This document shows positions 1,675-34,021 of a DNA stretch of 64,000 nt, in pieces. A program made the position numbers and the translations under genes. Each line of letters starts with the position of its first letter. The first letter of the stretch is position 1. The stretch is from Candidatus Latescibacterota bacterium (GTDB lineage Bacteria; Latescibacterota; UBA2968; UBA8231), in assembly GCA_965242865.1 (NCBI GenBank), contig CBDETK010000013.1, positions 1,248,001 to 1,312,000 of the forward strand, written 5' to 3'. Below the pieces are notes generated by a model that was given only the letters and a program-made list of their open reading frames with translations, did not search any database and was not told where the DNA came from.

Positions 1675-3723
1675 ATGAAGTGCTCCGCATTTGATCGGAT
1701 CGCCCGGTTCGGCTTTATCCTGCTCATCGTCGTCCTCGCCGGGCTGGGCACCGCCCACATCCTCGTCCGCACGGCCACCTACGGCACCGCGTTCGGCACG
1801 GACTCCGCACTTTTCCTGTCCACGGCCCTGAACTTCCTCGCCGGCGAGGGCTGGCGGGATTTCGGAGGGGCCCCGCTGGTGGGCTGGCCGCCGTTGTTCC
1901 CCCTGCTGCTGGCGGCCTTCGGTTGGGTTGGCATCGAGCCGCTGGAGGCAGGGCGGTGGATCAACGCCGCGGCCTTTGGGCTGACCATCTTGGTAGCCGG
2001 CCTCTATCTGCGCTCCCAGCTCCGGTTGCAGGGGCTGGCGCTGGCCGCCAGCGTGGTCATCGCGGCCTCCGTTCCCCTGAGCTATTTCGCGGCAGGCTTC
2101 TTGACCGATCCCCTCTTCGTCTTGTTTACGCTCCTCGCCTTGATCCAGTTGGCGGCCTTCCTCCAGCGCGGTGGGTGGACGCCCCTGCTGTGGGGCGCGG
2201 TGTTTACCGCCTTAGCCGCGCTGACCCGCTATCCGGGCGTGGTGCTGATCAGCACCGGCGTCCTCCTGCTTGCTCCCCTCGCCCGGCTAAGGCACACCCT
2301 CGCCTTTGGCGCGTGCTCGTCCCTGCCCTTGTTGCCGGTATTGGCGCACAATTGGACGGTCTCCGGGTCCCTCGCAGGGGTGCGAAAAGGCTCGGCTCAA
2401 CCCCTATCCGAGGGGCTGAGCCAGACAGCCAATATATTCTGGAAATGGGCCATTCCCCCGCACAGGCCGGACGAACTAGTCGATTATCTCCTGTGGAGGG
2501 TGACCGGGCTGGGTGCGCCGGACTGGTTCGGTTCTCTCCTATGGACGACGACCGGGCTGGTTGTTGCGGCGGCGGTGGCGGTTGTCGTGCTATCTGGGCG
2601 CGGCTTAGGCATGGGCGAAAATCGGACCGCGCCGGCGTATTTCGGCCTAGCACCGGCTCTACTTTTCGGGGGGTTCGCCAGCGTTTACCTCGCATGCATG
2701 GTAGTAGTCTTTCCAATAATGCTCCCGGTGGCAATCTACGACCGCTACCTGCTGCCGGTGTATGTGCCGTTGCTGTTAGCGGCCGTGTTGCTGCTCGATC
2801 GGTTCCTGTCCATTGAGGTTGCGGGCCGGGTGGCCGTGGCTAAGTGGGGTCTGGCATCCCTCGTCTTGCTGGGGACCCTCGCCCACATCGGCTTCTCGGC
2901 GCAGAGAAATCTCCATCTTACCACCCAAGCGTATGTATCCGGGTTCCCAGAGGATGGGGCTTACAACGTCGCCTATTGGCGACATCACGCGACCCTGAAT
3001 TACGTTAAGGCCCACCTCCGCGATGGCAGGATTTACAGCAACAACCCATTCGTTGTCTATTTTGCCGCTCGGACCGCCGCCTTCGGCCAACCGCCGAATT
3101 TGCCGAGTGAGCTACGCAATTGGACGCAGGATGCGAGGTGGTGGGTCGAAGGCGGCGAAGACGAAGTGTATATCGTCTGGATCAAAGGCGACTATCGGGC
3201 TCAGTATCACGACTACAACCACTTTGACATTCGCTTCCTGCCCGGCGTAGAGGTGGTGGCCGACTTGTCCGACGGCGTGGTCTTCCGCGTAACGGCGGTC
3301 AAACCGTTCGATGAAGACAGGGTTCGCGCCGAGAAAAAACGCTACCAAGAACGCTACGTGGAGCAACTCCTCGCACAGGCCGGCGAGCGGGTGGTTCGCG
3401 CCGACTGGGACGTGTACCGCAAGGGACACAAGCTGACCTACTTCAAAAAGCCGTGTGCCCCGGCCGACGTGCAGGCCAAGTTCATTTTGCACATCTACCC
3501 CGCCGACCCGGGCGTCCTTTCCATCGCCCGCAGGCGGCACGGCTTTGACAACCTCGGCTTCCATTTCGACCAACTCAGCGCACTACACGCCATGCAGGTC
3601 GCCGACCAGTGTATCGCGATCGTCGAGCTGCCCGACTACGCCATCGACCGCATCCGGGTCGGCCAATGGATTGCCAACGAGAACCGCACCCGCTGGGATG
3701 CGGAGTTTCCGGCGAGCCGGTGA
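1675..3723 (+). CDS. GT-C fold (ArnT/PMT-like) membrane glycosyltransferase, paralog 1
   Basis: Many TM segments; DS motif after TM1, WPPLFP, TDPLF, TRYPG and DRYLLP; extracytoplasmic domain plus a C-terminal beta domain with two Cys. Confidence 0.8.
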   Translation: MKCSAFDRIARFGFILLIVVLAGLGTAHILVRTATYGTAFGTDSALFLSTALNFLAGEGWRDFGGAPLVGWPPLFPLLLAAFGWVGIEPLEAGRWINAAAFGLTILVAGLYLRSQLRLQGLALAASVVIAASVPLSYFAAGFLTDPLFVLFTLLALIQLAAFLQRGGWTPLLWGAVFTALAALTRYPGVVLISTGVLLLAPLARLRHTLAFGACSSLPLLPVLAHNWTVSGSLAGVRKGSAQPLSEGLSQTANIFWKWAIPPHRPDELVDYLLWRVTGLGAPDWFGSLLWTTTGLVVAAAVAVVVLSGRGLGMGENRTAPAYFGLAPALLFGGFASVYLACMVVVFPIMLPVAIYDRYLLPVYVPLLLAAVLLLDRFLSIEVAGRVAVAKWGLASLVLLGTLAHIGFSAQRNLHLTTQAYVSGFPEDGAYNVAYWRHHATLNYVKAHLRDGRIYSNNPFVVYFAARTAAFGQPPNLPSELRNWTQDARWWVEGGEDEVYIVWIKGDYRAQYHDYNHFDIRFLPGVEVVADLSDGVVFRVTAVKPFDEDRVRAEKKRYQERYVEQLLAQAGERVVRADWDVYRKGHKLTYFKKPCAPADVQAKFILHIYPADPGVLSIARRRHGFDNLGFHFDQLSALHAMQVADQCIAIVELPDYAIDRIRVGQWIANENRTRWDAEFPASR

Positions 3724-3826
3724 TACCGGACGCCGCGTCGCCCGGTGCATTCCGAGCCGCTGGATAACCGCATAGAGGGCAGAAGATCGCCCTAACTTGC
3801 GGGGCATCTATGAGGGAGAGAATTTG

Positions 3827-6148
3827 ATGAAGTGCTCTGCATTTGAGCGGCTCGCCCGGTTGGGGCGCGACCCCTTCGCGCTGCTCATCGCCATCCTCGC
3901 CGGGCTGGGCACCGTCCACATCCTCGTCCGCACCGCCACCTACGGCGCCGCGGTCACCTACGACTCCTCATTTCTTCTGTCCACGGCCATAAACTGCCTC
4001 GCCGGCGAGGGTTGGCGGAACTTCACGGGCTACCCGCTGGTAGGATGGGCGCCCTTGTTTCCCCTGCTGCTGGCGGCCTTGGGTTGGCTTGGCATTGAGC
4101 CGTTTGAGGCGGGTCGGCTGCTCAACGCCACCGCCTTCGGGCTGACCATCTTCGCCGCGGGCGACTATCTGCGCTCGCATCTCCGGTCGCGGGGGCTGGT
4201 GCTGGCCGCGACCGCGACCATCGCGGTTTCCCTGCCCTTGAGCGATCTCGCGTCCCACTTCTTGACCGATTCCCTCTTCGTCCTGTGGACGCTCCTCGCC
4301 TTGATCCAATTGGCGTCCTTCCTCCAGCGCGGCGAGCGGACGCCCCTGCTGTTAGGCGCGGTTTTCGCTACGCTGGCCGCGCTGACCCGCTACCCGGGCG
4401 TGGTCCTGATCGGCGCCGGCGTCTTGTTGCTGCTGGTGCGACGCCCCCTGCCGCTGGCCGCCCGGTTGAAAGACGCCATCGTATTTGGGGCCGTCTCATC
4501 CTTGCCCCTCGCCGGGGTGCTGACGCGCAACTGGGCGGTCTCTGGAACCCTGACCGGGTATAGGAAAGGGGCGGGGCGGTCCCTGTTCGATGGGCTGGGC
4601 CAAGTGGCCGAGGTGTTCCGGGCGTGGGTGATTCCCCCGAATGCGCCGGACGGGGTTGGTGCTCTCCTGTGGATAGCGGCCGGGCTGGTGGTGGCAGCGG
4701 GGGCGGTCGTCGTGGTATCCGGTCGCGGCTTCGGCCTGAGCAAGCAGGACCGCGGCGCGCTCTTGGGGTTCCCATTCGCGGTGTTCACCGTAGCCTACCT
4801 CCTGTTCATAGTCGCCATCGTGCCGCTGGTGATCCACTCTCAGATCCCCGCCCGCTACCTGCTGCCGGTGTATGTGCCGCTGCTGTTGGCCGCGGCGTTG
4901 CTGCTCGACCGGTTCCTGTCCATTGAGGCGGCGAGCTGGATGGCAGCCGCCAAGTGGGGGCTGGCGTCCCTCGTCCTGCTGGGCACCCTCGCCCACGTCG
5001 GCTTCTCGGCGCACAGGAACCTGACTATTACCGCCGAAGCACGAGTAGCCGGGTTTGAACGCTGGACGTTCAATGGCTCCTACTGGGCATCTTCCGAGAC
5101 CCTGCAGTACGTCAGAACCAACCTTCGCGCTGGGACGATTTACAGCAACGGCCCCACCTTGGTGTGGTTTTGGGATCGGACCGCGGCCCCGGGAAAGCAC
5201 CAAAAAATCCCGGACGGGCTTCACCATTTGACGTCGGCCCTACTGGCGTGGAGCACTGACGGCAGCCCATATATCGCATGGATTCGGAGTGAAGAGTCTT
5301 TTTACGCCTACGACGACTTCGACCTCCGCTGCCTGCCCGGGGTGGAACCCGTGGCCGAACTGGCCGACGGGGTTGTATTCCGCGTAACGGCGACCGAACC
5401 GTTCGATGCGGACCGGCATCTCGCCCGCAAACAACGCTACGTGCAGCAACTCATCGAACAGGCCGGCGAGCAGGTGGGCCGCTCCGACTGGGACGTGTAC
5501 CGCAAGGGACGCACGCTGACCTACCACAAAAAGCCGTGTGCCCCCGCCGATGTGCAGGCGTATTTCGTGTTGCAAATCATCCCCGACGACCCAGCCGACC
5601 TGCCAGCCGACCGCCAGCCATACGGATCGGACTGGCTCGCCTTCGATTTCCACAGACGCGGCGGCATCCGGCTCGACGACCAGTGTGTGGTGAGCACCCA
5701 ACTCCCCGACTACGCCACCCGCCACATCCAAGTCGGCCAGTGGCAGGCCAGCGACAACCGCATGCTCTGGCAAATGAAGGCCGAGGGCACGATGGAGCAA
5801 CTCATCGAGCAGGCCAGCGAGCGAGTGGTCCGCGCCGGCTGGAGCGTGTACCGCAGGGAACGCGAGCTGATTTACCGCAAGCAGCCGTGTACCGCGGCCG
5901 ATGTGCAGGCGAAGTTCGTTTTGCACATCGTCCCGGCCGACCCGGCCGACCTGCCAGCCCACCGCAAACAGTACGATTCTGAGAATCTCGACTTCTATTT
6001 CGACCAGTTCGGCCTCCGGCTCGACGACCAATGTACGGTGCTCGCCCCGCTCCCCTCCTACCCCATCCGCACCATCTATATCGGCCAGTGGATTGCCGCC
6101 GAGAACCGCACCCTCTGGGAAGCGGAGTTGTCCGGGGCCGGAGATTGA
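3827..6148 (+). CDS. GT-C glycosyltransferase paralog 2, with tandemly duplicated C-terminal domain
   Basis: ATG after GAGGGAG; same motifs as paralog 1; two copies of the WxVYR...PC...QAxF.L...C...GQW domain. Confidence 0.8.
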   Translation: MKCSAFERLARLGRDPFALLIAILAGLGTVHILVRTATYGAAVTYDSSFLLSTAINCLAGEGWRNFTGYPLVGWAPLFPLLLAALGWLGIEPFEAGRLLNATAFGLTIFAAGDYLRSHLRSRGLVLAATATIAVSLPLSDLASHFLTDSLFVLWTLLALIQLASFLQRGERTPLLLGAVFATLAALTRYPGVVLIGAGVLLLLVRRPLPLAARLKDAIVFGAVSSLPLAGVLTRNWAVSGTLTGYRKGAGRSLFDGLGQVAEVFRAWVIPPNAPDGVGALLWIAAGLVVAAGAVVVVSGRGFGLSKQDRGALLGFPFAVFTVAYLLFIVAIVPLVIHSQIPARYLLPVYVPLLLAAALLLDRFLSIEAASWMAAAKWGLASLVLLGTLAHVGFSAHRNLTITAEARVAGFERWTFNGSYWASSETLQYVRTNLRAGTIYSNGPTLVWFWDRTAAPGKHQKIPDGLHHLTSALLAWSTDGSPYIAWIRSEESFYAYDDFDLRCLPGVEPVAELADGVVFRVTATEPFDADRHLARKQRYVQQLIEQAGEQVGRSDWDVYRKGRTLTYHKKPCAPADVQAYFVLQIIPDDPADLPADRQPYGSDWLAFDFHRRGGIRLDDQCVVSTQLPDYATRHIQVGQWQASDNRMLWQMKAEGTMEQLIEQASERVVRAGWSVYRRERELIYRKQPCTAADVQAKFVLHIVPADPADLPAHRKQYDSENLDFYFDQFGLRLDDQCTVLAPLPSYPIRTIYIGQWIAAENRTLWEAELSGAGD

Positions 6149-8067
6149 AACGGCTCATCGCCATCCTCGCCGGGCTGGGCACCGTCCACATCCTCGCCCG
6201 CACCGCCACCTACGGTGCCGCGGTCAACGCAGACACCACACTTCACCTCTCTACGGCCCTGAATTTCCTCGCCGGAGAGGGCTGGCAGGATTTCACGGGC
6301 GTACAGGCGGTGGAGTGGCCGCCCGGGTTCACCCTGCTGCTGGCGTTTGGCGGGCTTTTGGGCATTGAGCCGTGGGCGGCGGGTCGGCTGCTTAACGCCG
6401 CGGCCTTCGGGCTGACCATCCACGCCGCGGGCAACTATCTGCACTCGAATCTCCGGTCGCGGGGGCTGGCACTGGCCGCGTCCATGGCCATCGCGGCGTC
6501 CCTGCCGCTCACCTATTTCGCGTCCTACTGCATCACCGAGCCGCTCTTCGTCCTGTTCGCGCTCCTCGCCTTGATCCAACTGGCGACTTTCCTCCAGCGC
6601 GGCGAGCGGAGGCCCCTGCTATGGGCGGCGGTTTTCACTGCGCTGACCGCGCTGACCCGCTACCCGGGCGTGGTCCTGATCGGCACCGGCGTCCTCCTGC
6701 TGGTGCGACGCCCCCTGCCGCTGGCCGCCCGGCTGAAAGACGCCGTTGTATTTGGGGCCATCTCATCCTTGCCCCTCGCCGGTGTGCTGACGCACAACTG
6801 GGCGGTCTCCGGGACCTTGACCGGACGAAGAGATGGCTCGGGTCAGTCCCTAGCCGAGGGGTTGAGCCAAGTGGCCGAGGCATTCCGCGAGTGGGTCGTC
6901 CCCCCGAACGCGCCGGATGGGTTGGCGTATCTGCTGTGGCTGGCGGTCGGGTTAGTCGGGCTAGCCGGCGCGGTGGTCGTCCTGCGCCCCACCCGAAAGG
7001 GAGCGCCGCCGCCATCCTTTAGGTTGGAGCCGGCGCTCCCTTTCGGAGCGTTCGCCTTGATGTACCTCGTATTCATAATCGCCATCGTGCCCTTCACGGT
7101 GGGGTATGGCATCGACAGCCGCTACCTGCTGCCGGTGTACATGCCGCTGCTGTTGGTCGCGGTGTTCCTGCTCGATCGGTTCCTGTCCATCGAGACTACG
7201 GGCTGGATGGCTGCCGCCAAGTGGGGGCTGGCGTCCCTCGTCCTGCTAGGAGGCCTCGTCCACATCGGCTACTCGGCGCACGGGAACCTGACCATCACCG
7301 ACCAAGCCCGAGTAGCCGGGTTCGAGAACTGGACGTACAACGGGTCCTACTGGGAATCCTCCGAGACCCTGAAGTACATCCGAGATACCCGCATGGATGG
7401 CCGGATGTACAGCAACAACGCGTATCTTGCTTGGTTTGCAGACCGGACCGCGGCCCCGGGCAAGCACCAGCATCTCCCGGACGAGATTCACCGTTTGACG
7501 GCGGCCATACTGGAATGGAGCGCTGACGACAGCCCGTATATCGCATGGCTCCGGCGTGAAAAGTCTTTTTACGCCTACGACGAATTCGACCTCCGCTGCC
7601 TGCCCGGGGTGGAACCCGTGGCCGAACTGGACGATGGCGTCGTCTTCCGCGTAACGGCCGCCGAACCGTTCGATGCGGCAAGGCACCGCGCCCGCAAACA
7701 ACGCTACGTGCAGCAACTCGTCGAACAAGCCAGCGAGCGAGTAGGCCGCGCTGGCTGGGACGTGTACCGCACGGGACGCAAGCTGATTTACCGCAAACAG
7801 CCGTGCGCTTCCGCCGACGTGCAGGCCAAGCTCGTTTTGCACGTCATCCCCGTCGATCCGGCCGACTTGCCGACCGACCGCAAGCAGTACGGTTACGACA
7901 GCCTCGGCTTCTATTTCGACCAGCGCGAGAGCTTCTGGCTCGGCGACCAGTGCGTCGCGATCACCCAACTCCCCGCCTACCCCATCGGCCTCATCCGGGT
8001 CGGCCAGTGGATTTCTGTCGAGAACCGCACCCTCTGGGCAGCGGAGTTGTCCGGGGCCGAAGATTGA
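6145..8067 (+). CDS. GT-C glycosyltransferase paralog 3
   Basis: TTG start overlaps the upstream TGA (TTGA); DT variant of the DS motif, TEPLF, TRYPG and SRYLLP. Confidence 0.78.
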   Translation: MKRLIAILAGLGTVHILARTATYGAAVNADTTLHLSTALNFLAGEGWQDFTGVQAVEWPPGFTLLLAFGGLLGIEPWAAGRLLNAAAFGLTIHAAGNYLHSNLRSRGLALAASMAIAASLPLTYFASYCITEPLFVLFALLALIQLATFLQRGERRPLLWAAVFTALTALTRYPGVVLIGTGVLLLVRRPLPLAARLKDAVVFGAISSLPLAGVLTHNWAVSGTLTGRRDGSGQSLAEGLSQVAEAFREWVVPPNAPDGLAYLLWLAVGLVGLAGAVVVLRPTRKGAPPPSFRLEPALPFGAFALMYLVFIIAIVPFTVGYGIDSRYLLPVYMPLLLVAVFLLDRFLSIETTGWMAAAKWGLASLVLLGGLVHIGYSAHGNLTITDQARVAGFENWTYNGSYWESSETLKYIRDTRMDGRMYSNNAYLAWFADRTAAPGKHQHLPDEIHRLTAAILEWSADDSPYIAWLRREKSFYAYDEFDLRCLPGVEPVAELDDGVVFRVTAAEPFDAARHRARKQRYVQQLVEQASERVGRAGWDVYRTGRKLIYRKQPCASADVQAKLVLHVIPVDPADLPTDRKQYGYDSLGFYFDQRESFWLGDQCVAITQLPAYPIGLIRVGQWISVENRTLWAAELSGAED

Positions 8068-22981: not shown

Positions 22982-22985
22982 GAAT

Positions 22986-23590: not shown

Positions 23591-23659
23591 GTATCGCAAT
23601 CTGCGATATATTGCAATAAGCGGTCAGTCCGCCGCGATGCGGTTGAGAAACCTCGGCGG

Positions 23660-24042: not shown

Positions 24043-24171
24043 GGATCCCGTTGATGCCGGACGTCCTCGGCATACTCGGGCTATGGGGTGTTTGGGACTG
24101 GATGTTCGATGGCTAGGTAGGCGGGCAAGCGGCCTGCTTGCCGCTCCAGCCGCATCTCTTACCTTATAAAC

Positions 24172-25756: not shown

Positions 25757-25861
25757 TGAAGATTTGAATAAAAAAGCCGCGACGCATCCTGAGTATCAAC
25801 GAATAATAAATACGTAAGTGATTGTTTTTAATAAACTTATGAAACGAGGGGGGGGGGGGGG
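25757..25861 (+). promoter_or_regulatory. AT-rich upstream element with G14 tract, copy 2
   Basis: Near identical to 20233-20328; ATG at 25839 and G14 at 25848-25861. Confidence 0.6.
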
Positions 25862-27803
25862 AATTGCCTTCCTCGCCATCTTGGGCACCGCCCACATCCT
25901 CGTCCGCACCGCCCCCTCCGGAGCACTGCGCGGTGCCGACTCCATGAAATTCCTATACACCGCCATGAACTTCCTCGCGGGAGAAGGCTGGCAGGATTTC
26001 ATGGGCCTCCCGCTGACAGGATGGCCGCCCTTGTTCCCTCTGCTGCTGGCGGCCAGTGCCTGGGTTGGCATTGAGCCGGTGGAGGCGGGTCGGTGGATCA
26101 ACGCCACCGCCTTCGGGCTGACCATCCTCGCCGCGGGATGCTGGCTGTGCACGAATCTCCGGTCGCGGTGGCTGGTGCTGGCCACCACCGCGGTCGCGGC
26201 CTCCCTGCCCTTGAGCTATGAAGCGTCACGCTTCATTACCGAGCCCCTCTTCGTCCTGTTTACGCTCCTCGCCTTGATGCACTTGGCGTCCTTCCTCCAC
26301 CGGCGGACGGACGCGCCCCTGTGGTGGGCGGCGGGTTTCACCGCGCTGGCCGCGCTGACCCGCTATCCGGGCGTGGTGCTAATCGGCACCGGCGTCCTGC
26401 TGCTGCTGCCCCGCGCCCGGCTCAAGCAGACCCTCGGCTTTGGCGCGATCTCGTCCCTGCCCTTGCTGGCGGTATTGGTGCATAATTGGGCGGTCTCCGA
26501 GACCCTGACCGGGAGACCTACGAAGACCTCGGGACAGTCCCTATCCGCTGGGCTGAGCCAGATCGTTGATGTATTCAGTGAGTGGGTCGTCCCTCCGAAC
26601 GCACCGGATGGGGTGGCGTATCTGCTGTGGCTGGCGGTCGGGTTGGTCGGGCTGGCCGGCGCGGCGGTCGTCCTGCACCGGTCGCCAGCCGGACCCAGGG
26701 CCGCGCCGGCGTATTTCCGCTTGGAGCCGGCTATCCCATTCGGGGTATTCGCCGTAGCCTACTCCGTATCTCTGGTCGCTGTCGTGCCCTTCACGGTAAC
26801 TCAGATCGTCGACAGCCGCTACCTGCTGCCGGTGTATGTGCCGCTGCTATTGACGGCGGTGTTGCTGTTGGACCGGTTCCTGTCCATCGAGATGTGGGTC
26901 GGAGGGGTTGCCATCCGGTACGGTCTGGCGTCCCTCGTCTTGCTGGCGTCCCTCGCCCACACCGGCTTCTCAGCGCGAAGAAACCTCCAAATTACCGCCA
27001 GAATATTGGAAGGCGGGTGGGTTCCTCGCACTCCCTCGCAGGCAACTCATGCCTCTTGGCCACATTCCGATTGGCAATATTCCGAGACCCTGATGTACTT
27101 TAGGACCAACCGCATGGATGGCAGGATTTACACCAACGACATCGGATTCCTCGCTTGGTCTGAGGATTGGCTCACCGCCCCAGGAGAGTACCGAAAGTAC
27201 CGACAAATCCCGCGCGGGAAGCCAAACAGGAAGGGATGGACCGAGATCGAGGCCGGAGCCTATATCGTTTGGTTTGACAGAGCCCATGATCCAGTTCATT
27301 ATCGCTACGATGCCCTTGATTACCGTCTCCTGCCTGGCGTGGAAACCGTGGCCGAACTGGCCGACGGCGTGGTCCTCCGCGTACTCCGCCAAACGACAGC
27401 CGAACCCTTCGAGACACAAAGGCATCGCGCCCGCAAACAACGCTACATCAACCAACTCATCCAACAGGCTAACGAGCGAGTAGAGCGCGCTGGCTGGACC
27501 GTGTACCGCACCGGACGCAAGCTGACCTACTTCAAAAAGCCGTGTACCCGCGCCGATGTGCAGGCCAAGTTCGTCTTGCACGTCACCCCCGCCGATTTGG
27601 CCGACCTGCTCGCCCACCGTCAGCGATACGGCTTTGACAATCTCGACTTCTATTTCGACCGGCACGACGTCCGGCTCTACAACGAGTGTGTGGAGGTCAT
27701 CCGCCTCCCCCCTTACCCCATCGACCGTATCCGGGTCGGCCAGTGGATTTCCGCCGAGAACCGCACCCTCTGGGACGCAGAATTTGCGGGGGCCGGGGAT
27801 TGA
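25839..27803 (+). CDS. GT-C glycosyltransferase paralog 7 (G14 tract in frame, ON)
   Basis: MKRGGGGGIAFLAILG...ADSMKFL...TEPLF...TRYPG...SRYLLP. Confidence 0.8.
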   Translation: MKRGGGGGIAFLAILGTAHILVRTAPSGALRGADSMKFLYTAMNFLAGEGWQDFMGLPLTGWPPLFPLLLAASAWVGIEPVEAGRWINATAFGLTILAAGCWLCTNLRSRWLVLATTAVAASLPLSYEASRFITEPLFVLFTLLALMHLASFLHRRTDAPLWWAAGFTALAALTRYPGVVLIGTGVLLLLPRARLKQTLGFGAISSLPLLAVLVHNWAVSETLTGRPTKTSGQSLSAGLSQIVDVFSEWVVPPNAPDGVAYLLWLAVGLVGLAGAAVVLHRSPAGPRAAPAYFRLEPAIPFGVFAVAYSVSLVAVVPFTVTQIVDSRYLLPVYVPLLLTAVLLLDRFLSIEMWVGGVAIRYGLASLVLLASLAHTGFSARRNLQITARILEGGWVPRTPSQATHASWPHSDWQYSETLMYFRTNRMDGRIYTNDIGFLAWSEDWLTAPGEYRKYRQIPRGKPNRKGWTEIEAGAYIVWFDRAHDPVHYRYDALDYRLLPGVETVAELADGVVLRVLRQTTAEPFETQRHRARKQRYINQLIQQANERVERAGWTVYRTGRKLTYFKKPCTRADVQAKFVLHVTPADLADLLAHRQRYGFDNLDFYFDRHDVRLYNECVEVIRLPPYPIDRIRVGQWISAENRTLWDAEFAGAGD

Positions 27804-27806
27804 ACG

Positions 27807-29819
27807 ATGAAGTCCTCCGCCATCGAGCGGCTCACCCGGTTCGGACGCGACCCCTTCATGCTGCTTACCGCCTTGATCGCCGGGCTGGGCACTGCCCACA
27901 TCCTCGTCCGCACCGCCACCTACGGAGCGAAGACCACCTACGACTCCGTATATTTCCTGTACACGGCCCTGAATTTCCTCACCGGAGAGGGCTGGCGGGA
28001 TCTCTCAGACACCCCGCTGGTCGTATGGCCGCCCTTGTTTCCCCTGCTGCTAGCGGCCGGTGGCTGGGTTCGCATCGATCCGGTGGAGGCGGGTCGGTTT
28101 ATCAACGCCACCGCCTTCGGGCTGACCATCCTCGCCGCCGGGTGCTGGCTGCGCTCAAATCTCCGGTTGCAGTGGCTGGCACTGGCCGCCACCGCGACCA
28201 TCGCGGCGTCCTTGCCTTTGAGCCATTTCGCGTCGTGGATCAAGACCGACTTCCTCTTCGTCCTGTTGACGCTCCTCGCCTTGGTCCAGTTGGCGGCCTT
28301 CCTGCATCGCGGCGGGCGGACGCTGCTGCTGCTGGGCGCGGTTTGCACCGCGCTGGCCGCGGTGACCCGCTATCCGGGCGTGGTCTTGATAGGCGTCGGC
28401 GTCCTCATACTGCTGGGGCGGCGCACCCCGCCGCTGGCCGCCCGGTTGAAAGACGCCGTCGCATTTGGGGCTGTCTCATCCTTGCCCCTCTCCGGAGTGC
28501 TGATGTACAACTGGACGGTCTCCGGCACCCTGACCGGGGGGAGAAGCGGGGCGGGGCAGTCCCTGTCCGCTGGGCTGAACCAAGTGGCGGATGTATTCAG
28601 GGAGTGGGTGATTCCCCCGAATGTGCCAGACGGGTTTGGCTATCTCCTGTGGACCGCGGCTGGGCTGGTTGTAGCAGCGGGGGTGGTCGTCGTGGTGGTC
28701 GGTCGCGGCTTAGGCCTGGGAGGAAAGAATCGGCCGGCGTCGCCGTTCTTAGGGTTGGGGCCGGCACTCCCATTCGGGGGGTTCGCCGTAGCTTACCTCG
28801 GATTCATGGTCGCCATCGTGCCCTTCACGGTTTATCAGGGCATCGACAGCCGCTACCTGCTGCCGGTCTATGTCCCGCTGCTGTTGACGGTCGTGTTCTT
28901 GCTGGATCGGTTCCTGTCCATCGAGGCGACAGGTCGGATAGCCGCGGTCCGGTCCGGTCTGGCGTCCCTCGTCCTGCTGGCCGCCCTCGCCCACACCGGC
29001 TTCTCGGCGCACAGAAACCTCCGCATTACCGCCGCAGCTTATGTAGCCGGGTTCGAAAGCTGGACGCTCAATGGCTCCTACTGGGAACCTTCCGAGACCC
29101 TGAAGTACATCAGAACCCGCCTTAGCGATGGCAGGATTTTCAGCAACAACCCCCACCTTGCTTGGTTTTGGGATCGGACCGCCGCCCTCGGAAAGCACCG
29201 GGGGCTCCCGGGCAGGCTTCACAAGGTGATACCGCGCATAATGCGGAGTACCGAGGGCGACGGCGCACATATCGTTTGGCTCCATAATGAAAAACCAGGC
29301 TCTCTTCACGACGACGACCGGCACTACTACGATGCTCTGGACATCCGCTGCCTGCCCGGCGTGGAACCCGTGGCCGAGCTATCCGACGGGGTGGTGTTCC
29401 GCGTAACGGCGGCGACCGAACCGTTCGATGCGGACCGGCATCGCGCCCGGAGACAACGCTACTTAGACCAACTCCTCGAACCGGCCGGCGAGCGGGTGGT
29501 CCGCGCCGACTGGGACGTGTACCGCAACGGACGCAAGCTGACCTATCTCAAAAAGCCATGTACACCAGCCGATGTGCAGGCCAAGTTCGTTTTGCGCGTC
29601 ATCCCGGCCGACCCAGCCGATCTGCCAGCCTCCCGCCAGCGGTACGGCTTTGACAACCTCGGCTTCTATTTCGACCGGCGCGGCTTCCGGCACGGCGACC
29701 AGTGTATGGCGACCGTTCATCTACCCACCTACGCCATCGGCCACATCCGGGTCGGTCAGTGGATTTCCGCCGAGAACCGCACCCTCTGGGAAGCGGAGTT
29801 TGCGGGGGCCGGGGATTGA
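27807..29819 (+). CDS. GT-C glycosyltransferase paralog 8
   Basis: ATG 3 nt after the previous stop; YDSVYFL, TRYPG and SRYLLP. Confidence 0.8.
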   Translation: MKSSAIERLTRFGRDPFMLLTALIAGLGTAHILVRTATYGAKTTYDSVYFLYTALNFLTGEGWRDLSDTPLVVWPPLFPLLLAAGGWVRIDPVEAGRFINATAFGLTILAAGCWLRSNLRLQWLALAATATIAASLPLSHFASWIKTDFLFVLLTLLALVQLAAFLHRGGRTLLLLGAVCTALAAVTRYPGVVLIGVGVLILLGRRTPPLAARLKDAVAFGAVSSLPLSGVLMYNWTVSGTLTGGRSGAGQSLSAGLNQVADVFREWVIPPNVPDGFGYLLWTAAGLVVAAGVVVVVVGRGLGLGGKNRPASPFLGLGPALPFGGFAVAYLGFMVAIVPFTVYQGIDSRYLLPVYVPLLLTVVFLLDRFLSIEATGRIAAVRSGLASLVLLAALAHTGFSAHRNLRITAAAYVAGFESWTLNGSYWEPSETLKYIRTRLSDGRIFSNNPHLAWFWDRTAALGKHRGLPGRLHKVIPRIMRSTEGDGAHIVWLHNEKPGSLHDDDRHYYDALDIRCLPGVEPVAELSDGVVFRVTAATEPFDADRHRARRQRYLDQLLEPAGERVVRADWDVYRNGRKLTYLKKPCTPADVQAKFVLRVIPADPADLPASRQRYGFDNLGFYFDRRGFRHGDQCMATVHLPTYAIGHIRVGQWISAENRTLWEAEFAGAGD

Positions 29820-29919: not shown

Positions 29920-30000
29920 CTAAGAATAATAACATAAGTGATTGTTTTTACTGAATTTATGATGGGGAGGGGGGGGGGAGATTTACCCTCTCCACGGTGA
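29920..30000 (+). promoter_or_regulatory. Partial AT-rich element (copy 3) with G10 tract inside a 13-codon leader ORF
   Basis: CATAAGTGATTGTTTTTA...TTTATGATG; G10 at 29969-29978; ATG at 29959 reads MMGRGGGDLPSPR* and its TGA (29998-30000) overlaps GTG at 29997. Confidence 0.55.
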
Positions 30001-32051
30001 AGTCCTCCGCATTCGAGCGGCTCGCCCGGTTCGGGCGCGACCCCTTCATGCTGCTCATCGTCGTCCTCGCCGGGCTAGGCACCGCCCACATCCTCGTCCG
30101 CACCGCCGCCTATGGTGGGGGAGGCCACTACGACTCCGTGCGCTTCCTGTCCACAGCCATGAACTTCCTCGCCGGCGAGGGCTGGCGGGATTTCAGGGGC
30201 GAACCGATGACGCAGTGGCCGCCTTTGTTCCCTCTGCTGCTGGCGGCTCTCGGTTGGGTGGGCATCGAGCCGCAGGCGGCGGGTCGGTTTATCAACGCCA
30301 CGGCCTTTGGGCTGACTATCCTCGCCGCGGGCTGCTGGCTACGCTCAAATCTCCGGTCGCAGTGGCTGGCAGTGGTCGCCACCGCGACCATCGCGGCTTC
30401 CCTGCCCTTGAGCAAACTCGCGTCCTACTTCTTTAACGACTCCCTCTTCGTCCTGTTTACGCTCCTCGCCTTGATGCACTTGGCGTCCTTCCTCCATCGG
30501 CGGACGACCGCGCCCCTGTGGTGGGCGGCGGGTTTCACCGCGCTGGCCGCGCTGACCCGCTATCCGGGCGTGGCCCTGATCGGCGTCGGCGTCCTGCTGC
30601 TGCTGCCCCGCGCCCGGCTCAAGCAGACCCTCGGCTTTGGCGCGATCTCGTCCCTGCCCTTGCTGGGAGTATTGGCGCACAACTGGGCGGTCACCGGGCA
30701 CCTGACCCGGGCAACAAGGAACACCCTATCGGCTGGGATGAGCCAGACCGTCAAGGTGTTCGGCGAGTGGATCGTCCGGGCAACAGGGAACAGAACAAAT
30801 GCTACCGGGCAGTCCCTATCCGAGGGACTAAGCCAGACTGTCAATGTGTTTCGCGAGTGGGTCGTCCCCGCGAACGCGCCGGATGGGGTGGCGTATCTGC
30901 TGTGGCTGGCGGTCGCCGCAGTCGGGCTGGCCGGTGCCGCGGTCGTCCTGCACACCACCCGAATGCGAAGCGACGACAGCGGGAGAGCCCACGCATCGTA
31001 TTTCCATTTAGGGCCGGTTATCCCTTTCGGGGTGTTCGCCCTAGCCTATCCCGTATTCATGGTCGCTGTCGTGCCCTTAACGATTGATCAAGGCATCGAC
31101 AGCCGCTACCTGCTGCCGGTGTATGTGCCCCCGCTATTGGCGGCGGTGTTCCTGCTGGACCGGTTCCTGTCCATTGAGGCGGCAGGCTGGAGGGTTGCCG
31201 TCCGGTACGGTCTGGCGTCCCTCATCCTGCTCGGTGCCCTCGCCCACACCGGCTTATCGGCGCACAGAAACCTCCGTATTACCGCCAGAGCATTGGAAGA
31301 CGGGTACTTAGGGTTCTGGGCGGACAATACCTTTTGGCAACCTTCCGAGACCCTGAATTACATTAGGACCAACCACATGGACGGCAGGATTTACAGCAAC
31401 GATCCCTTCCTCGCTTGGTCTGAGGAGAAGATCGCCGCCCCGGGCAAGTACCGAATGATCCCGCACGGGAAGTCAAAGCAGAAGGGATGGACCGAGATCG
31501 AGGCCGGAGCCTATATCGTTTGGTTTGACAGACTCCATAATCCAAGGGGGCTTCGCTACGACTCCTTTGACTTCCGTCTGCTGCCCGACGTGGAAACCGT
31601 GGCCGAACTGGCCGACGGCGTGGTACTCCGCGTACTCCGCCGAACAACAGTCGGATCCCTCGATATACAAAGGCACGCCCGCAAACAACGCTACGTGGAC
31701 CAACTCATCCAACAGGCCAGCCAGCGAGTCGAGCGCGCCGGCTGGACCGTGTGCCGCACCGGACGCAAGCTGACCTACTTCAAAAACCCGTGTACCCTCG
31801 CCGACGTGCAGGCCAAGTTCGTCTTGCACGTCACCCCCGCCGACTTGGCCGACCTGCCCGCCTACCGCCAGCGATACGGCTTTGACAATCTCGACTTCTA
31901 TTTTGACCGGAGCGATGTCCGACGCGATAACCCGTGTGTGGAGATCATCCGACTCCCCGCTTACCCCATCGGTCGCATCCGAGTCGGTCAGTGGATTTCC
32001 AGAGAGAACCGCACCCTCTGGGACGCAGAGTTTGCGGGGGCCGGGGATTGA
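29997..32051 (+). CDS. GT-C glycosyltransferase paralog 9
   Basis: GTG start; HYDSVRFL, TRYPG and SRYLLP; internal duplication RAT...LSxGxSQTVxVFxEW. Confidence 0.8.
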   Translation: MKSSAFERLARFGRDPFMLLIVVLAGLGTAHILVRTAAYGGGGHYDSVRFLSTAMNFLAGEGWRDFRGEPMTQWPPLFPLLLAALGWVGIEPQAAGRFINATAFGLTILAAGCWLRSNLRSQWLAVVATATIAASLPLSKLASYFFNDSLFVLFTLLALMHLASFLHRRTTAPLWWAAGFTALAALTRYPGVALIGVGVLLLLPRARLKQTLGFGAISSLPLLGVLAHNWAVTGHLTRATRNTLSAGMSQTVKVFGEWIVRATGNRTNATGQSLSEGLSQTVNVFREWVVPANAPDGVAYLLWLAVAAVGLAGAAVVLHTTRMRSDDSGRAHASYFHLGPVIPFGVFALAYPVFMVAVVPLTIDQGIDSRYLLPVYVPPLLAAVFLLDRFLSIEAAGWRVAVRYGLASLILLGALAHTGLSAHRNLRITARALEDGYLGFWADNTFWQPSETLNYIRTNHMDGRIYSNDPFLAWSEEKIAAPGKYRMIPHGKSKQKGWTEIEAGAYIVWFDRLHNPRGLRYDSFDFRLLPDVETVAELADGVVLRVLRRTTVGSLDIQRHARKQRYVDQLIQQASQRVERAGWTVCRTGRKLTYFKNPCTLADVQAKFVLHVTPADLADLPAYRQRYGFDNLDFYFDRSDVRRDNPCVEIIRLPAYPIGRIRVGQWISRENRTLWDAEFAGAGD

Positions 32052-34021
32052 TGAAGTCCTCCGCCTTCGAGCGGCTCGCCCGGTTCGGGCGCGACCCCTT
32101 CGCGCTGCTCATCGTCGTCCTCGCCGGGCTAGGCACCGCCCACATCCTCGTCCGCACCGCCACCTACGGCCCGGCGAGCATCTACGACTCCATACGTTTC
32201 CTGTCCACAGCCATGAACTTCCTCGCGGGAGAGGGCTGGCGGGATTTCAAGGGCCTCCCGCTGACAGGATGGCCGCCTTTGTTCCCTCTGCTGCTAGCGG
32301 CCTTCGGTTGGGTAGGCATCGAGCCGCAGGCGGCGGGTCGGTTTATCAACGCCACCGCCTTCGGGCTGACCATCCTCGCCGCGGGGTGCTGGCTGCGCTC
32401 AAATCTCCGGTCGCGGTGGCTGGTGCTGACCGCCATCGCGACCATTACGGCCTCCCTGCCCTTGAGCCATTGGATGGCACATTTCATTACCGAGCCCCTC
32501 TTCGTCCTGTTTACGCTCCTCGCTTTGATGCACTTGGCGTCCTTCCTCCACCGGCGGACGGACGCGCCCCTGTGGTGGGCGGCGGGTTTCACCGCGCTGG
32601 CCGCGCTGACCCGCTATCCGGGCGTGGCCCTGATCGGCGTCGGCGTCCTGCTGCTGCTGCCCCGCGCCCGGCTCAAGCAGACCCTCGGCTTTGGCGCGAT
32701 CTCGTCCCTGCCCTTGCTGGGAGTATTGGCGCACAACTGGGCGGTTACCGGGCACCTGACCGAAGCAACAAGTAAAAAACCCCTGTTCGCTGAGCAGTCC
32801 CTAGCGGCTGGACTGATCCAGATCGTCAAAGTGTTCGGCGAGTGGGTCGTCCCCCCGAACGCGCCGGAGGGGGGGGCGTATTTGCTGTGTCTGGCGGTCG
32901 GGTTGGTCGGGCTGGCCGGCGCCGCGGTCGTCCTGCACCGCCACCCCGAATGCACCACGCCGGCGTATTCCCGTTTGGAGCCAGCTATCCCATTCGGGGT
33001 GTTCGCCGTAGCCTACCCGGTATTCATGATCGCCGTCGTGCCCTTCACGGTTAAGCAGGGCATCGACAGCCGCTACCTGCTGCCGGTCTATGTGCCGCTG
33101 CTGTTGACGGTCGTGTTCTTGCTGGATCGGTTCCTCTCCATCGAGGAGGTGGGCTGGAGGGTTGCCATCCGGTACGGTCTGGCGTCTCTCGTCCTGCTGG
33201 CGTTCCTCTCCCACATCGGCTTATCGGCGCACGGGAACCTCCGTATTACCGCCAGAGCATTGGAAGATGGGCAGGAAATTAGCTGGCGGGAAAACCCCGC
33301 CTTTTGGCAGCATTCCGAGACCCTGAATTACATTAGGACCAATCGCATGGATGGCAGGATTTACAGCAATAACCCCTTCCTCGCTTGGTCTGAGGAGAGG
33401 ATCGCCGCCCCGGGAAAGTACCGACAAATCCCGCACGGGAGGTCACACGGGAAGGGATGGACCGAGATCGAGGCCGGGGCCTATATCGTTTGGTTTGACA
33501 GAGCCCATGATCCAACTCGTTTTCGCTACGATGCCCTCGACTACCGTCTGCTGCCCGACGTGGAAACCGTGGCCGAACTGGCCGACGGCGTGGTCCTCCG
33601 CGTACTCCGCCAAACGACAGCCGAACCCTTCGATACACAAAGGCATCGCGCCCGCAAACAACACTACATCAACCAACTCATCCAACAGGCTAACGAGCGA
33701 GTGGAGCGCGCTGGCTGGACCGTGTACCGCACCGGACGCAAGCTGACTTACTTCAAAAAGCCGTGTACCCTCGCCGACGTGCAGGCCAAGTTCGTCTTGC
33801 ACGTCACCCCCGCCGATTTGGCCGCCCTGCCCGCCCACCGCCAGCGATACGGCTTTGACAATCTCGACTTCTATTTCGACCTGATCGGCGTCCGGCTCTA
33901 CAACGAGTGTGTGGAGGTCATCCGACTCCCCGCTTACCCCATCGGCCGCATCCGGGTCGGCCAGTGGATTTCCAGCGAGAACCGCACCCTCTGGGACGCG
34001 GAGTTTGCGCCGGGCCGGTGA
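32051..34021 (+). CDS. GT-C glycosyltransferase paralog 10
   Basis: TGATG overlap start; IYDSIRFL, TEPLF and SRYLLP; internal G8 at 32869-32876. Confidence 0.8.
   Translation: MKSSAFERLARFGRDPFALLIVVLAGLGTAHILVRTATYGPASIYDSIRFLSTAMNFLAGEGWRDFKGLPLTGWPPLFPLLLAAFGWVGIEPQAAGRFINATAFGLTILAAGCWLRSNLRSRWLVLTAIATITASLPLSHWMAHFITEPLFVLFTLLALMHLASFLHRRTDAPLWWAAGFTALAALTRYPGVALIGVGVLLLLPRARLKQTLGFGAISSLPLLGVLAHNWAVTGHLTEATSKKPLFAEQSLAAGLIQIVKVFGEWVVPPNAPEGGAYLLCLAVGLVGLAGAAVVLHRHPECTTPAYSRLEPAIPFGVFAVAYPVFMIAVVPFTVKQGIDSRYLLPVYVPLLLTVVFLLDRFLSIEEVGWRVAIRYGLASLVLLAFLSHIGLSAHGNLRITARALEDGQEISWRENPAFWQHSETLNYIRTNRMDGRIYSNNPFLAWSEERIAAPGKYRQIPHGRSHGKGWTEIEAGAYIVWFDRAHDPTRFRYDALDYRLLPDVETVAELADGVVLRVLRQTTAEPFDTQRHRARKQHYINQLIQQANERVERAGWTVYRTGRKLTYFKKPCTLADVQAKFVLHVTPADLAALPAHRQRYGFDNLDFYFDLIGVRLYNECVEVIRLPAYPIGRIRVGQWISSENRTLWDAEFAPGR

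What the first reader, a model, noticed from the sequence alone, without database searches (positions are those of the whole stretch)
1675..34021. Array of nine GT-C glycosyltransferase paralogs: candidate diversifying, phase-variable surface-glycosylation system
Seen: nine full paralogs in two blocks (1675-10049 and 20314-34021), all on the + strand, mostly coupled by short overlaps or gaps. They share long near-identical DNA stretches interrupted by sharply variable segments. A distant GT-C and a remnant are also present. Known: GT-C enzymes (ArnT, PMT, OST) move sugars from lipid-phosphate donors to lipids, glycans or proteins outside the membrane and are usually low copy. Inference: an expanding, recombining repertoire that varies a surface glycan, for example under host or phage pressure. 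I do not recognise a described system with this layout.
Basis: partly seen in the sequence, partly recalled or inferred. Interest (0 to 1): 0.88.

Follow-up and report, generated by a model that had tools for sequence, protein, structure and literature searches.

The report
Poly-G-switched array of membrane glycosyltransferase paralogs
A sponge-associated bacterium carries about 34 copies of a new membrane sugar-transferase gene, nine of them in this window, and several gene groups begin with a run of G's that probably switches them on and off at random, letting cells vary their surface sugars.

Summary
The nine paralogs are real, at the stated coordinates: 52-78% amino-acid identity, in two + strand blocks, mostly translationally coupled. 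An AlphaFold model (pLDDT 90.5) matches only GT-C enzymes, with ArnT best at E 8e-8, yet Pfam PMT_2 stays below its cut-off. This is therefore an undescribed GT-C family.

The array is one of several. The genome holds 34 full-length copies, and a named Latescibacterota relative holds at least 35, with different copy number and order.

The main new point is the head structure. Heads of sub-arrays carry a conserved 27-nt AT-rich motif ending in ATG, followed by a poly-G tract: G8 (F), G14 (G) and G10 (I) in the window, and 8-19 nt genome-wide.
- 4 of 10 tract-bearing heads are in frame and 6 are out of frame, all with intact downstream ORFs.
- 4 of 4 heads without a tract are in frame.
- All 28 G/C runs of 13 nt or more in the genome lie at this motif family.

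This fits slipped-strand phase variation, as in the Neisseria lgt genes. Tract-length heterogeneity could not be tested, because only Logan contigs were served. The claim of long near-identical DNA stretches holds only for G/I/J. The glycan target is unknown.

The parts
1675..3723 (+). Paralog A (682 aa). It heads block 1 with an ordinary ATG start, no head motif and no poly-G.
3827..6148 (+). Paralog B (773 aa from ATG 3827). It carries one extra copy of the ~120-aa C-terminal beta-sandwich domain.
6145..8067 (+). Paralog C. Its TTG start overlaps the stop of B by 4 nt. It has the short N-terminal type (MKR-LIAILAGLG).
8064..10049 (+). Paralog D. Its TTG start overlaps the stop of C by 4 nt.
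10076..11761 (+). E: a 561-aa multipass membrane protein 27 nt after D. It is a candidate distant GT-C. It is single copy, and a 75% identical ortholog follows the syntenic array in the Latescibacterota relative (L020).
20290..20316 (+). Head motif of F (TAAGTGATTGTTTTTAATAAATTTATG). The ATG is at 20314-20316.
20321..20328 (+). Poly-G tract, G8. ATG 20314 is out of frame with the F reading frame (consensus state OFF). G7 or G10 would restore the frame.
20348..22981 (+). Paralog F open frame (877 aa from TTG 20348). It carries a duplicated ~250-aa C-terminal module and is followed by a 13-bp-stem inverted repeat at about 22985-23022.
23633..24092 (+). Remnant of a paralog. It keeps pieces matching H residues 35-91 and 461-533, plus a copy of the 3' end of F.
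25815..25841 (+). Head motif of G. The ATG is at 25839-25841.
25848..25861 (+). Poly-G tract, G14. It is in frame (ON) and encodes MKR-GGGGG before TM1.
25839..27803 (+). Paralog G (654 aa).
27807..29819 (+). Paralog H (670 aa), 3 nt after G. This is the modelled protein: GT-C fold, 11 predicted TM helices and a periplasmic C-terminal domain.
29935..29961 (+). Head motif of I. The ATG is at 29959-29961.
29969..29978 (+). Poly-G tract, G4-A-G10. From ATG 29959 the frame closes after 13 codons at TGA 29998-30000, which overlaps GTG 29997. G11 would fuse the head to the I frame, as in tract-less heads elsewhere in the genome.
29997..32051 (+). Paralog I open frame (684 aa from GTG).
32051..34021 (+). 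Paralog J (656 aa). Its ATG overlaps the stop of I by 1 nt.

Best explanation
The window holds nine intact members, one decayed remnant and one distant relative (E) of an undescribed family of GT-C-fold inner-membrane glycosyltransferases. The family has 34 full-length copies in this genome. The genome is an uncultured bacterium whose closest named relative is a Candidatus Latescibacterota MAG, and its DNA is held by runs labelled sponge metagenome.

Each protein has a conserved N-terminal transmembrane module with an invariant Asp46 in the first periplasmic loop. The later loops are more variable, and a periplasmic C-terminal module combines an alpha/beta part with an Ig-like beta-sandwich that has two invariant Cys. 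I infer that the enzymes transfer a sugar from a polyprenyl-phosphate donor to different periplasmic acceptors: LPS/O-antigen, another surface polysaccharide, or a protein.

The genes form translationally coupled units. Block 1 (A-B-C-D-E) has an ordinary start and is probably always expressed. The units F, G-H and I-J each begin with a conserved 27-nt leader motif ending in ATG, followed within 2-3 codons by a poly-G tract. Slipped-strand mispairing at replication should change the tract length and so put the unit in or out of frame (inferred). In the consensus sequence F is off, G-H is on and I-J is off. Ten such tracts across the genome would allow about a thousand combinations of expressed transferases in a clonal population. 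That would vary the surface glycan, most plausibly against phage adsorption or host recognition.

Shown: the paralogy, the fold, the motif and tracts, and the frame states. Inferred: the switching itself, the donor, the acceptor and the selective agent.
For: - **Fold.** The AF2 model of H has pLDDT 90.5 and pTM 0.90. Foldseek against the PDB gave 30 matches at E <= 0.001, and every listed one is a GT-C enzyme: ArnT 5f15 (E 7.8e-8, TM 0.60 on target), AftD, Pmt4, STT3/OST, ALG12/ALG9, PglB, EmbA/B/C, DPY19 and AftA/B.
- **Conserved residues.** D46 is invariant in 46 of 46 aligned family members that are down to 30% identical. R349, P227, C585 and C633 are also invariant.
- **Family size.** There are 34 tblastn HSPs of 600 aa or more in the genome, in arrays of 6, 9, 2, 4-5 and 3 copies plus singletons.
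- **Motif.** TAAGTGATTGTTTTTAMTRAAYTTATG (up to 2 mismatches) occurs 14 times in the genome, with 0 hits for the reversed control. All 14 are at 5' ends of paralogs.
- **Frame states.** Of 10 heads with an uninterrupted tract of 8 nt or more, 4 are in frame (G14, G19, G13, G9). Six are out of frame (G8, G8, G10, G10, G13, G16), and each of those is followed by an open frame of at least 650 aa. All 4 heads with no tract or an interrupted one are in frame.
- **Census.** 28 G/C runs are 13 nt or longer, against about 1.5 expected under an iid model, while runs of 7-10 nt are 3-5 fold depleted. All 28 lie at the shared core motif: 5 at GT-C heads and 23 in the second class.
- **Codon argument.** GGG makes up only 32% of Gly codons in the nine genes (162 of 513), so pure G runs are not what selection for poly-Gly would give.
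- **Divergence pattern.** Whole-gene dN/dS is 0.48-0.73 with unsaturated dS of 0.21-0.60. The conserved part is TM1-7 (0.70-0.79 mean pairwise identity across 33 paralogs). The variable parts are EL4, TM8, IL4 and the C-domain (0.32-0.58).
- **Turnover.** The named relative OZ242005.1 has at least 35 copies in the fetched loci. The tree shows species-specific bursts and only 3 cross-species sister pairs.
- **Precedent.** The Neisseria lgtA, lgtC and lgtD genes carry poly-G tracts of 17, 10 and 11 bp (PMC2191774, abstract).
- **Context.** Anti-phage genes lie between and beside the blocks: PDC-S01, TIR, GajA/GajB and DrmMI.
Against: - No read-level evidence of tract-length heterogeneity. The four runs laid are Logan contigs, which are fragmented here, and no listed piece spans a tract.
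- No alternative contigs of these loci exist in the assembly.
- The sequencing platform is unknown. Homopolymer lengths of 10 nt or more in the consensus may be wrong by 1 or more, so the ON/OFF calls for long tracts are uncertain. The G8 and G9 calls are more robust.
- The motif plus tract is rare among relatives: 2 of 31 genomes of the genus have the motif. The relative with at least 35 copies has few tracts.
- Paralog I has a GTG at the position where H and J start, so it might be made without the head.
- No promoter was identified. The sigma-70 scan was no better than shuffles, 6 sites against 3.2 +/- 1.7.
- No gtrA/gtrB-like donor genes lie next to the array. The single PF04138 hit is elsewhere in the genome.
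- Pfam PMT_2 scores are below the curated cut-off for all nine paralogs, and 4 of 9 have no hit at all.
Confidence: 0.6

Rival explanations
1. Static paralog expansion. The GT-C copies are all ordinary, constitutively or conventionally regulated genes. The G runs are just short poly-Gly linkers before TM1, or homopolymer errors of the assembly, and nothing switches.
For: Tract lengths in a consensus of unknown platform are uncertain. No heterogeneity was seen. In-frame tracts do encode Gly runs in a cytoplasmic tail, where length may not matter.
Against: Two G8 tracts, a length that is normally called reliably, are out of frame. Pure GGG runs are unexpected when GGG is 32% of Gly codons. All 28 long runs in the genome sit at one motif family, while short runs are depleted. 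Heads without tracts are 4 of 4 in frame, against 4 of 10 with tracts.
Confidence: 0.15
2. RNA-level slippage. The G tracts make RNA polymerase or the ribosome slip, so every unit yields a fixed fraction of in-frame product whatever the DNA length. This would be a rheostat rather than a heritable switch.
For: Tracts reach 13-19 nt and sit in the first codons. Out-of-frame genes stay intact, as they would if they were still expressed. That transcriptional slippage rescues frameshifts at long homopolymers in insect endosymbionts is recalled from the literature and was not checked here.
Against: The documented cases I recall involve A/T tracts. It does not explain why tract-less heads are always in frame. 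It is not exclusive of DNA slippage.
Confidence: 0.1
3. Decay. The out-of-frame heads mark young pseudogenes in a family undergoing birth and death, and are not reversible switches.
For: The family does lose members. The window holds one remnant, and the genome holds at least 4 other fragments. The tree shows turnover.
Against: All 6 out-of-frame heads are followed by uninterrupted frames of at least 650 aa, and the only lesion is at the tract. Frameshifts elsewhere in the 2-kb genes were not seen in the 34 full-length copies.
Confidence: 0.08
4. Assembly artefact. The array is a chimeric collapse or concatenation of strain alleles.
For: Short-read contigs of the holders are highly fragmented here and give many false joints between copies.
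Against: The copies differ by 22-48% in protein sequence, far beyond strain alleles. Junctions are clean translational couplings. Similar or larger arrays occur at four other places in the same 5.6-Mb contig and in an independent chromosome-level MAG. Pieces from three runs (X8, X9, X10) match with 0 differences (table 8).
Confidence: 0.03

Closest known systems
Neisseria lgtABCDE lipooligosaccharide locus, and similar poly-G glycosyltransferase contingency genes of Campylobacter and Helicobacter (the latter two recalled)
   Same: Both have tandem paralogous glycosyltransferase genes in one locus. Both have poly-G tracts (17, 10 and 11 bp in lgtA, C and D) inside the coding region, so that frame changes switch enzymes on and off and vary a surface glycan (PMC2191774, abstract read; PMC5953494, listing and start of abstract only).
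   Different: Those enzymes are soluble or peripheral cytoplasmic GT-A/GT-B transferases that use nucleotide sugars, with a handful per genome, in cultured animal pathogens. Here the enzymes are GT-C integral-membrane proteins acting on the periplasmic side. There are 34 copies, the tract follows a conserved leader motif at the very start of the gene, one tract heads a coupled unit of 1-2 genes, and the host is an uncultured sponge-associated bacterium.
Salmonella/phage gtrABC O-antigen glucosylation operons
   Same: A family-specific GT-C-type transferase (GtrC) modifies a surface glycan in the periplasm. Several gtr operons occur per genome, and expression is phase variable (PMC2909390 and PMC3688519, listings and starts of abstracts). 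The GT-C fold of GtrC is recalled, not checked here.
   Different: gtr switching is epigenetic (Dam methylation-dependent per the PMC2909390 title; OxyR involvement is recalled), not by sequence repeats. Each gtr operon carries its own gtrA and gtrB, whereas no such genes lie in or next to this array. gtr operons are few and phage-borne.
ArnT / PMT_2 (GT83/GT39) and mycobacterial Emb/Aft arabinosyltransferases
   Same: These are the best structural matches (ArnT E 7.8e-8; AftD, EmbA/B/C, AftA/B). They share the N-terminal transmembrane catalytic module plus a C-terminal periplasmic domain. The Emb enzymes are also adjacent paralogs (recalled).
   Different: Sequence identity is 9-19% in the listed matches. 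Pfam PMT_2 is below its cut-off. The C-terminal module has no significant structural match, best E 0.023. Copy number is an order of magnitude higher, and the heads carry poly-G tracts.

Membership tests
GT-C fold glycosyltransferases | Multi-pass membrane fold shared by ArnT, PMT, STT3/PglB, ALG and Emb/Aft | tested here: met
   The model has pLDDT 90.5. There are 30 Foldseek PDB matches at E <= 0.001, all listed ones are GT-C enzymes, and the best is ArnT at 7.8e-8.
GT-C fold glycosyltransferases | Conserved acidic residue in the first extracytoplasmic loop after TM1 | tested here: met
   D46 is invariant in 46 of 46 sequences and lies in loop 36-76 after helix 16-35 of the model. Its equivalence to the catalytic Asp of ArnT or PglB was not checked residue by residue.
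GT-C fold glycosyltransferases | Use of a polyprenyl-phosphate-linked sugar donor | not testable with these tools
   Inferred from the fold only.
Pfam PMT_2 (PF13231) / PMT (PF02366) | Score at or above the curated gathering cut-off | tested here: not met
   The best score is 21.7 bits against a 26.1 cut-off. Five of 9 paralogs have sub-threshold hits and 4 of 9 have none. NCBIfam also gives only sub-threshold hits.
Simple-sequence-repeat contingency (phase-variable) loci | Long homopolymer in the 5' coding region or promoter, over-represented against expectation | tested here: met
   G8-G19 tracts sit 2-3 codons after the ATG at 10 heads. There are 28 runs of 13 nt or more against about 1.5 expected, all at one motif family.
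Simple-sequence-repeat contingency (phase-variable) loci | Both in-frame and out-of-frame states, with otherwise intact genes | tested here: met
   Four heads are in frame and 6 are out of frame, all with open frames of at least 650 aa. Tract-less heads are 4 of 4 in frame. Caveat: consensus homopolymer lengths may be inexact.
Simple-sequence-repeat contingency (phase-variable) loci | Tract-length polymorphism within a population or between isolates | tested here: inconclusive
   Only Logan contigs were served, and no listed piece spans a tract. There are no haplotigs. No same-species contigs were found in the other collections.
gtrABC-type glycan modification operon | GT-C gene adjacent to gtrA (flippase) and gtrB (polyprenyl-P glycosyltransferase) | tested here: not met
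   No such genes are in the window. The single PF04138 match in the genome is at C13:3570290, far from any array.

The most novel reading that the evidence does not exclude
Sponge symbionts run a genome-wide poly-G contingency system. In this genome one shared core motif (TAAsT-N2-TTGTTTTT...) with G tracts is attached to two large families of envelope and host-interaction genes: the 34-copy GT-C transferases, and about 30 LRR + YWTD eukaryote-like lipoproteins. Homologous GT-C genes with long G tracts also occur in MAGs of other phyla (Dehalococcoidia, Caldilineaceae, Longimicrobiales). Stochastic surface variation would then be a convergent or horizontally shared strategy for persisting inside a phagocytic, phage-rich animal host.
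Probability: 0.3. Interest if true: 0.9.

Novelty: new variant of a known kind. Interest (0 to 1): 0.74.

Why it matters
Phase variation by repeat slippage is textbook biology for a few cultured animal pathogens. It is essentially unexplored in uncultured environmental symbionts.

This locus would extend it in three ways:
- To GT-C membrane glycosyltransferases.
- To a family size of about 34 copies, unusual for this enzyme class.
- To a candidate phylum known only from metagenomes.

It gives a concrete, cheaply testable prediction: tract-length mixtures in long-read sponge metagenomes. The question it addresses is how symbionts avoid being eaten by sponge cells or lysed by phages. It also defines a large unannotated GT-C family, with 869 cluster representatives at E <= 1e-30, and a widespread C-terminal domain that has no Pfam model.

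Tried and rejected
- **Reads on the tracts.** All four runs laid are Logan contigs. They are fragmented in the array and give many joints that are cross-mappings between paralogs. No listed piece spans a tract, so there is no information on tract length or on array order.
- **Motif scan of JGI metagenome contigs.** The one hit, L048, is an unrelated AT-rich sequence. Rejected.
- **First genome-contig scan with H alone.** No relatives were found.
- **Sequence searches of H and of the A2 profile against the PDB.** Nothing significant. The RNase H hits at E 0.017 are taken as noise.
- **hhalign of the paralog profile against E and against ORF 17687-19672(-).** No relation. The 661-aa minus-strand ORF has no TM segments and is not a GT-C.
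- **C-terminal module.**
  - Atlas look-alikes were all below 0.9.
  - Pfam found nothing even at E 10.
  - Foldseek's best match was E 0.023, with generic Ig-like hits.
  - Calling it a carbohydrate-binding module is therefore not supported.
- **Sigma-70 promoter and terminator scan.** Not above shuffles, so no promoter is assigned.
- **Small contigs C1-C12 as alternative haplotypes of tract loci.** None found.
- **Right-hand neighbours of class-1 tracts.** They are heterogeneous, so the repeated unit belongs with the lipoprotein gene on the left. The 18-aa ORF may be incidental.
- **Literature.** These searches found no description of this family, or of poly-G switching, in sponge symbionts:
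  - 'sponge symbiont' + 'phase variation' + glycosyltransferase (0 papers).
  - sponge/symbiont/homopolymeric/phase-variable.
  - Latescibacter + sponge + glycosyltransferase (passages of PMC12993501 read, nothing relevant).
  - sponge/symbiont/mannosyltransferase/enriched.
  - poly-G/phase variation/metagenome-assembled/glycosyltransferase.
  - Supplements were not consulted.

Full report
**1. What is there**

The window (GC about 63%) is bases 1248001-1312000 of a 5.6-Mb contig in a 6.0-Mb, 13-contig genome. All-against-all BLASTP of the long + strand ORFs shows nine full-length paralogs at 52-78% identity.
- Block 1 holds A, B, C and D (1675-10049).
- Block 2 holds F, G, H, I and J (20314-34021).
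- B carries one extra copy of the last ~120 aa. F carries an extra ~250 aa.
- The junction sequences show tight coupling: B/C and C/D overlap in TTGA, I/J overlap in TGATG, and G/H are 3 nt apart.
- A decayed copy lies at 23633-24092.
- E (10076-11761) follows D by 27 nt. It is a 561-aa multipass membrane protein.
  - Its only link to GT-C enzymes is a set of language-model look-alikes annotated PMT_2/RgtA-like, at scores of 0.98-0.99.
  - Pfam, the PDB sequence search and hhalign are silent on it.

The other 33 pairs are 70-79% identical, with runs of 59 nt or less.

**2. What the proteins are**

Pfam gives only sub-threshold PMT_2 or PMT hits for 5 of 9 paralogs (best 21.7 bits, cut-off 26.1) and nothing for the other 4. 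NCBIfam is also sub-threshold.

I modelled H with a 46-sequence alignment that goes down to 30% identity. The model has pLDDT 90.5 and pTM 0.90. Foldseek against the PDB returns 30 matches at E <= 0.001, and every listed one is a GT-C glycosyltransferase. ArnT is best (5f15, E 7.8e-8), followed by AftD, Pmt4, STT3, ALG12, PglB, Emb, DPY19 and AftB.

My reading of the model is as follows. Topology is inferred from helix parity and the positive-inside rule.
- There are 11 TM helices, with the N-terminus in the cytoplasm.
- Asp46 is invariant (46 of 46) and lies in the first periplasmic loop.
- Arg349 is invariant and lies at the periplasmic face.
- The periplasmic C-terminal module (415-670) consists of an alpha/beta part and an Ig-like beta-sandwich with two invariant Cys.

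Modelled alone (pLDDT 86.5), the C-terminal module has no significant structural match (best E 0.023) and no Pfam hit. Its last ~110 aa recur as tandem repeats, up to 10 per protein, in many other proteins.

Across 33 paralogs of this genome, TM1-7 is the conserved part (0.70-0.79 mean pairwise identity). EL4, TM8, IL4 and the C-module are the variable part (0.32-0.58). This matches the general GT-C plan of a conserved donor/catalytic module joined to a variable acceptor module. That generalisation is recalled, not tested here.

**3. The family in the genome and beyond**

tblastn finds 34 full-length copies, one of them divergent at 40% identity, plus several fragments. They form arrays of 6, 9 (this window), 2, 4-5 and 3 copies, with singletons as well.
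- The exhaustive representative search gives 869 clusters at E <= 1e-30.
- The word-based search shows almost only unnamed metagenome proteins.
- Among 41 related genomes, 8 have matches. Only 3 of 24 in the genus besides this genome do.
- The genome-contig scan names the closest relative as 'MAG: Candidatus Latescibacterota bacterium' (OZ242005.1), with matches at 56-64% identity.
- More distant homologs (28-46%) lie in MAGs titled Caldilineaceae, Dehalococcoidia, Vicinamibacterales, Candidatus Binatia and Longimicrobiales.

The fetched loci of OZ242005.1 alone hold at least 35 copies, including runs of 5, 6 and 8 adjacent genes between 1.455 and 1.500 Mb.

A maximum-likelihood tree of 69 copies (quick mode, SH-aLRT support) shows the following:
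- The expansions are species-specific.
- There are three cross-species sister pairs: A with OZ_1999369, C with OZ_2019733, and G0_4680058 with OZ_2034069.
- The nine window copies need 7 label changes, so they are not one local burst. Only G/I/J form a clade (support 100).

E has a 75% identical ortholog directly after the syntenic array in the relative (L020). Block 1 plus E is therefore the older, shared part, but with a different copy number and order.

Whole-gene dN/dS is 0.48-0.73 with dS of 0.21-0.60. Within G/I/J, windows where pN is at least pS (residues 121-150, 287-312, 373-402) alternate with windows that are nearly identical at synonymous sites (residues 151-240). That pattern suggests loop diversification plus some gene conversion. 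It is not a formal test.

Sequencing runs labelled sponge metagenome hold the stretch. X1, which I laid, has 133 contigs at 99% identity or better. Three coded runs match with 0 differences in the listed pieces, and the best holders may be the source sample.

**4. The poly-G heads**

Reading the 5' ends showed that F, G and I are each preceded by the same AT-rich sequence ending in ATG, with a G run following within 2-3 codons:
- F: ...TTTATGAAGT-G8-AATTGCC
- G: ...TTATGAAACGA-G14-AATTGCC
- I: ...TTTATGATGGGGA-G10-AGATTTACC

The 27-nt motif occurs 14 times in the genome (up to 2 mismatches, reversed control 0). Every occurrence is at the head of a paralog or sub-array. In 31 genomes of the genus it occurs only here and in G046, which has 4.

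Frame analysis gives these states:
- Ten heads have uninterrupted tracts of 8-19 nt.
  - In 4 of them the ATG is in frame with the full-length protein: G14 (window G), G19, G13 and G9.
  - In the other 6 it is not: G8 (window F), G10 (window I), G10, G13, G16 and G8. Every downstream frame of those six is open for at least 650 aa.
- The 4 heads whose tract is absent or interrupted are all in frame.

In I, the head frame stops after 13 codons at a TGA that overlaps GTG 29997. In tract-less homologous heads that codon is internal, for example ACG-ATA-AAG at C13:2346125. The upstream ATG is therefore the likely true start, although GTG-initiated expression cannot be excluded.

Genome-wide, G/C runs of 7-10 nt are 3-5 fold rarer than iid expectation. 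Runs of 13 nt or more number 28 against about 1.5 expected. All 28 lie next to the shared core TAAnT..TTGTTTTT: 5 at GT-C heads and 23 in a second class. GGG is 32% of Gly codons in the nine genes, so the pure G runs look selected at the DNA level rather than for poly-Gly.

This is the anatomy of repeat-mediated contingency genes. The nearest precedent is the gonococcal lgt locus (PMC2191774, abstract).

**5. What could not be shown**

No raw reads were served. The Logan contigs break around the tracts. No haplotigs exist, and no same-species contigs turned up elsewhere. Length heterogeneity, the defining property of phase variation, is therefore untested. Consensus lengths of long homopolymers may also be off, although the G8 and G9 states are the more trustworthy ones. 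The donor, the acceptor and the promoter are unknown.

**6. Context**

The TonB-dependent receptor at 43025-45607 indicates a diderm envelope. Between the blocks lies a PDC-S01-type ATPase. To the right lie a TIR protein, an epimerase/dehydratase-like SDR, an HddA-like kinase (below cut-off), Gabija GajA/GajB and a DISARM-like DrmMI with an SNF2 helicase. The array thus sits in a variable, defence-rich region. That fits a role in phage-receptor variation but does not prove one.

**7. Verdict**

The GT-C assignment is right at fold level. The family is new to the curated libraries. The phase-variation idea is now backed by specific sequence features, though not by population data.

I put 0.6 on the full mechanism: poly-G slippage switching coupled GT-C units to vary a periplasmic or surface glycan. 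The paralog array and GT-C fold I put at about 0.95. The finding is a new variant of a known kind.

Noticed in passing
G000:C13, e.g. 4049312-4051392 (locus L049); 32 tracts genome-wide, none in the window: There is a second class of poly-G tracts (G9-G22; 32 of the 68 runs of 9 nt or more), of the form ...GGAGAATTTTC-Gn-TAAGTCGTTGTTTTTCAAGGACTTA. It shares its core with the GT-C heads, but here the tract is upstream of the core. It lies about 360 nt upstream of, and pointing away from, the start of a ~30-copy family of lipoproteins with LRR_4 and LDL-receptor class B (YWTD) repeats, which are eukaryote-like proteins. The repeated unit is the gene plus this upstream region. The mechanism (promoter spacer?) is not resolved.
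   Followed up: partly
L043:7165-7181, L038:7163-7172, L027:11348-11359 and 13210-13225, L034:10423-10444, L042:5772-5799 and 12798-12812, L045:9335-9347 and 13460-13474, L047:4427-4457: Loci around distant homologs in MAGs titled Dehalococcoidia, Caldilineaceae and Longimicrobiales also carry long G/C tracts (10-31 nt), mostly followed by TA(A). In L043 a G17 sits inside the GT-C homolog. The TM part (to 7092) is in frame 1 and the C-terminal beta-sandwich (from 7367) is in frame 2, so the tract separates two frames of one gene. In L027 two identical 80-nt leaders, with G12 and G16, precede ORFs that carry the beta-sandwich domain.
   Followed up: partly
class-level relatives (handles G004, G025, G060, G068 and others): Runs of 12 or more G are patchy among 101 genomes of the class. 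61 genomes have at least one, and a few have 18-31 (G000 31, G060 30, G004 22, G025 19). In G093, G101 and G104 the runs cluster within a few hundred bases on small contigs and may be artefacts.
   Followed up: no
window 12727-14199, 34159-34629, 49964-52764, 52924-59348: The array has a defence-gene neighbourhood: a PDC-S01-type AAA_14/DUF4143 ATPase between the two blocks; a TIR-domain protein directly after J; GajB plus a short GajA (288 aa, matching only the first ~220 positions of 569-aa profiles); and a DISARM-like DrmMI methylase with an SNF2-type helicase.
   Followed up: partly
window 29480-29816 (H residues 559-670) and its equivalents in all paralogs: The C-terminal ~110-aa beta-sandwich with two invariant Cys has no Pfam model. 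It is a widespread repeat, with up to 10 matched stretches in one protein, in proteins of related genomes and of metagenomes.
   Followed up: partly
window 19721-19976, 24119-24182, 24924-25702: Non-coding repeats lie upstream of heads F and G. 24924-25327 and 25319-25702 form a 92% tandem duplication. 19787-19976 matches 25381-25570 at 95%, and 19721-19787 matches 24119-24182 at 96%. The region upstream of F looks like the region upstream of G with the SDR gene (24172-24957) missing.
   Followed up: no
window 14206-19672: A low-GC stretch (52.7% at 16-18 kb) holds three ORFs with no family hits: 14206-15258(-), 15853-16920(-), and a 661-aa soluble protein at 17687-19672(-). It may be an insertion between the two blocks.
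   Followed up: no
window 37235-38599: A metallo-beta-lactamase-fold protein is most similar to YtnP-type quorum-quenching lactonases (E 4.5e-54, 183.5 bits, below the 425-bit cut-off).
   Followed up: no
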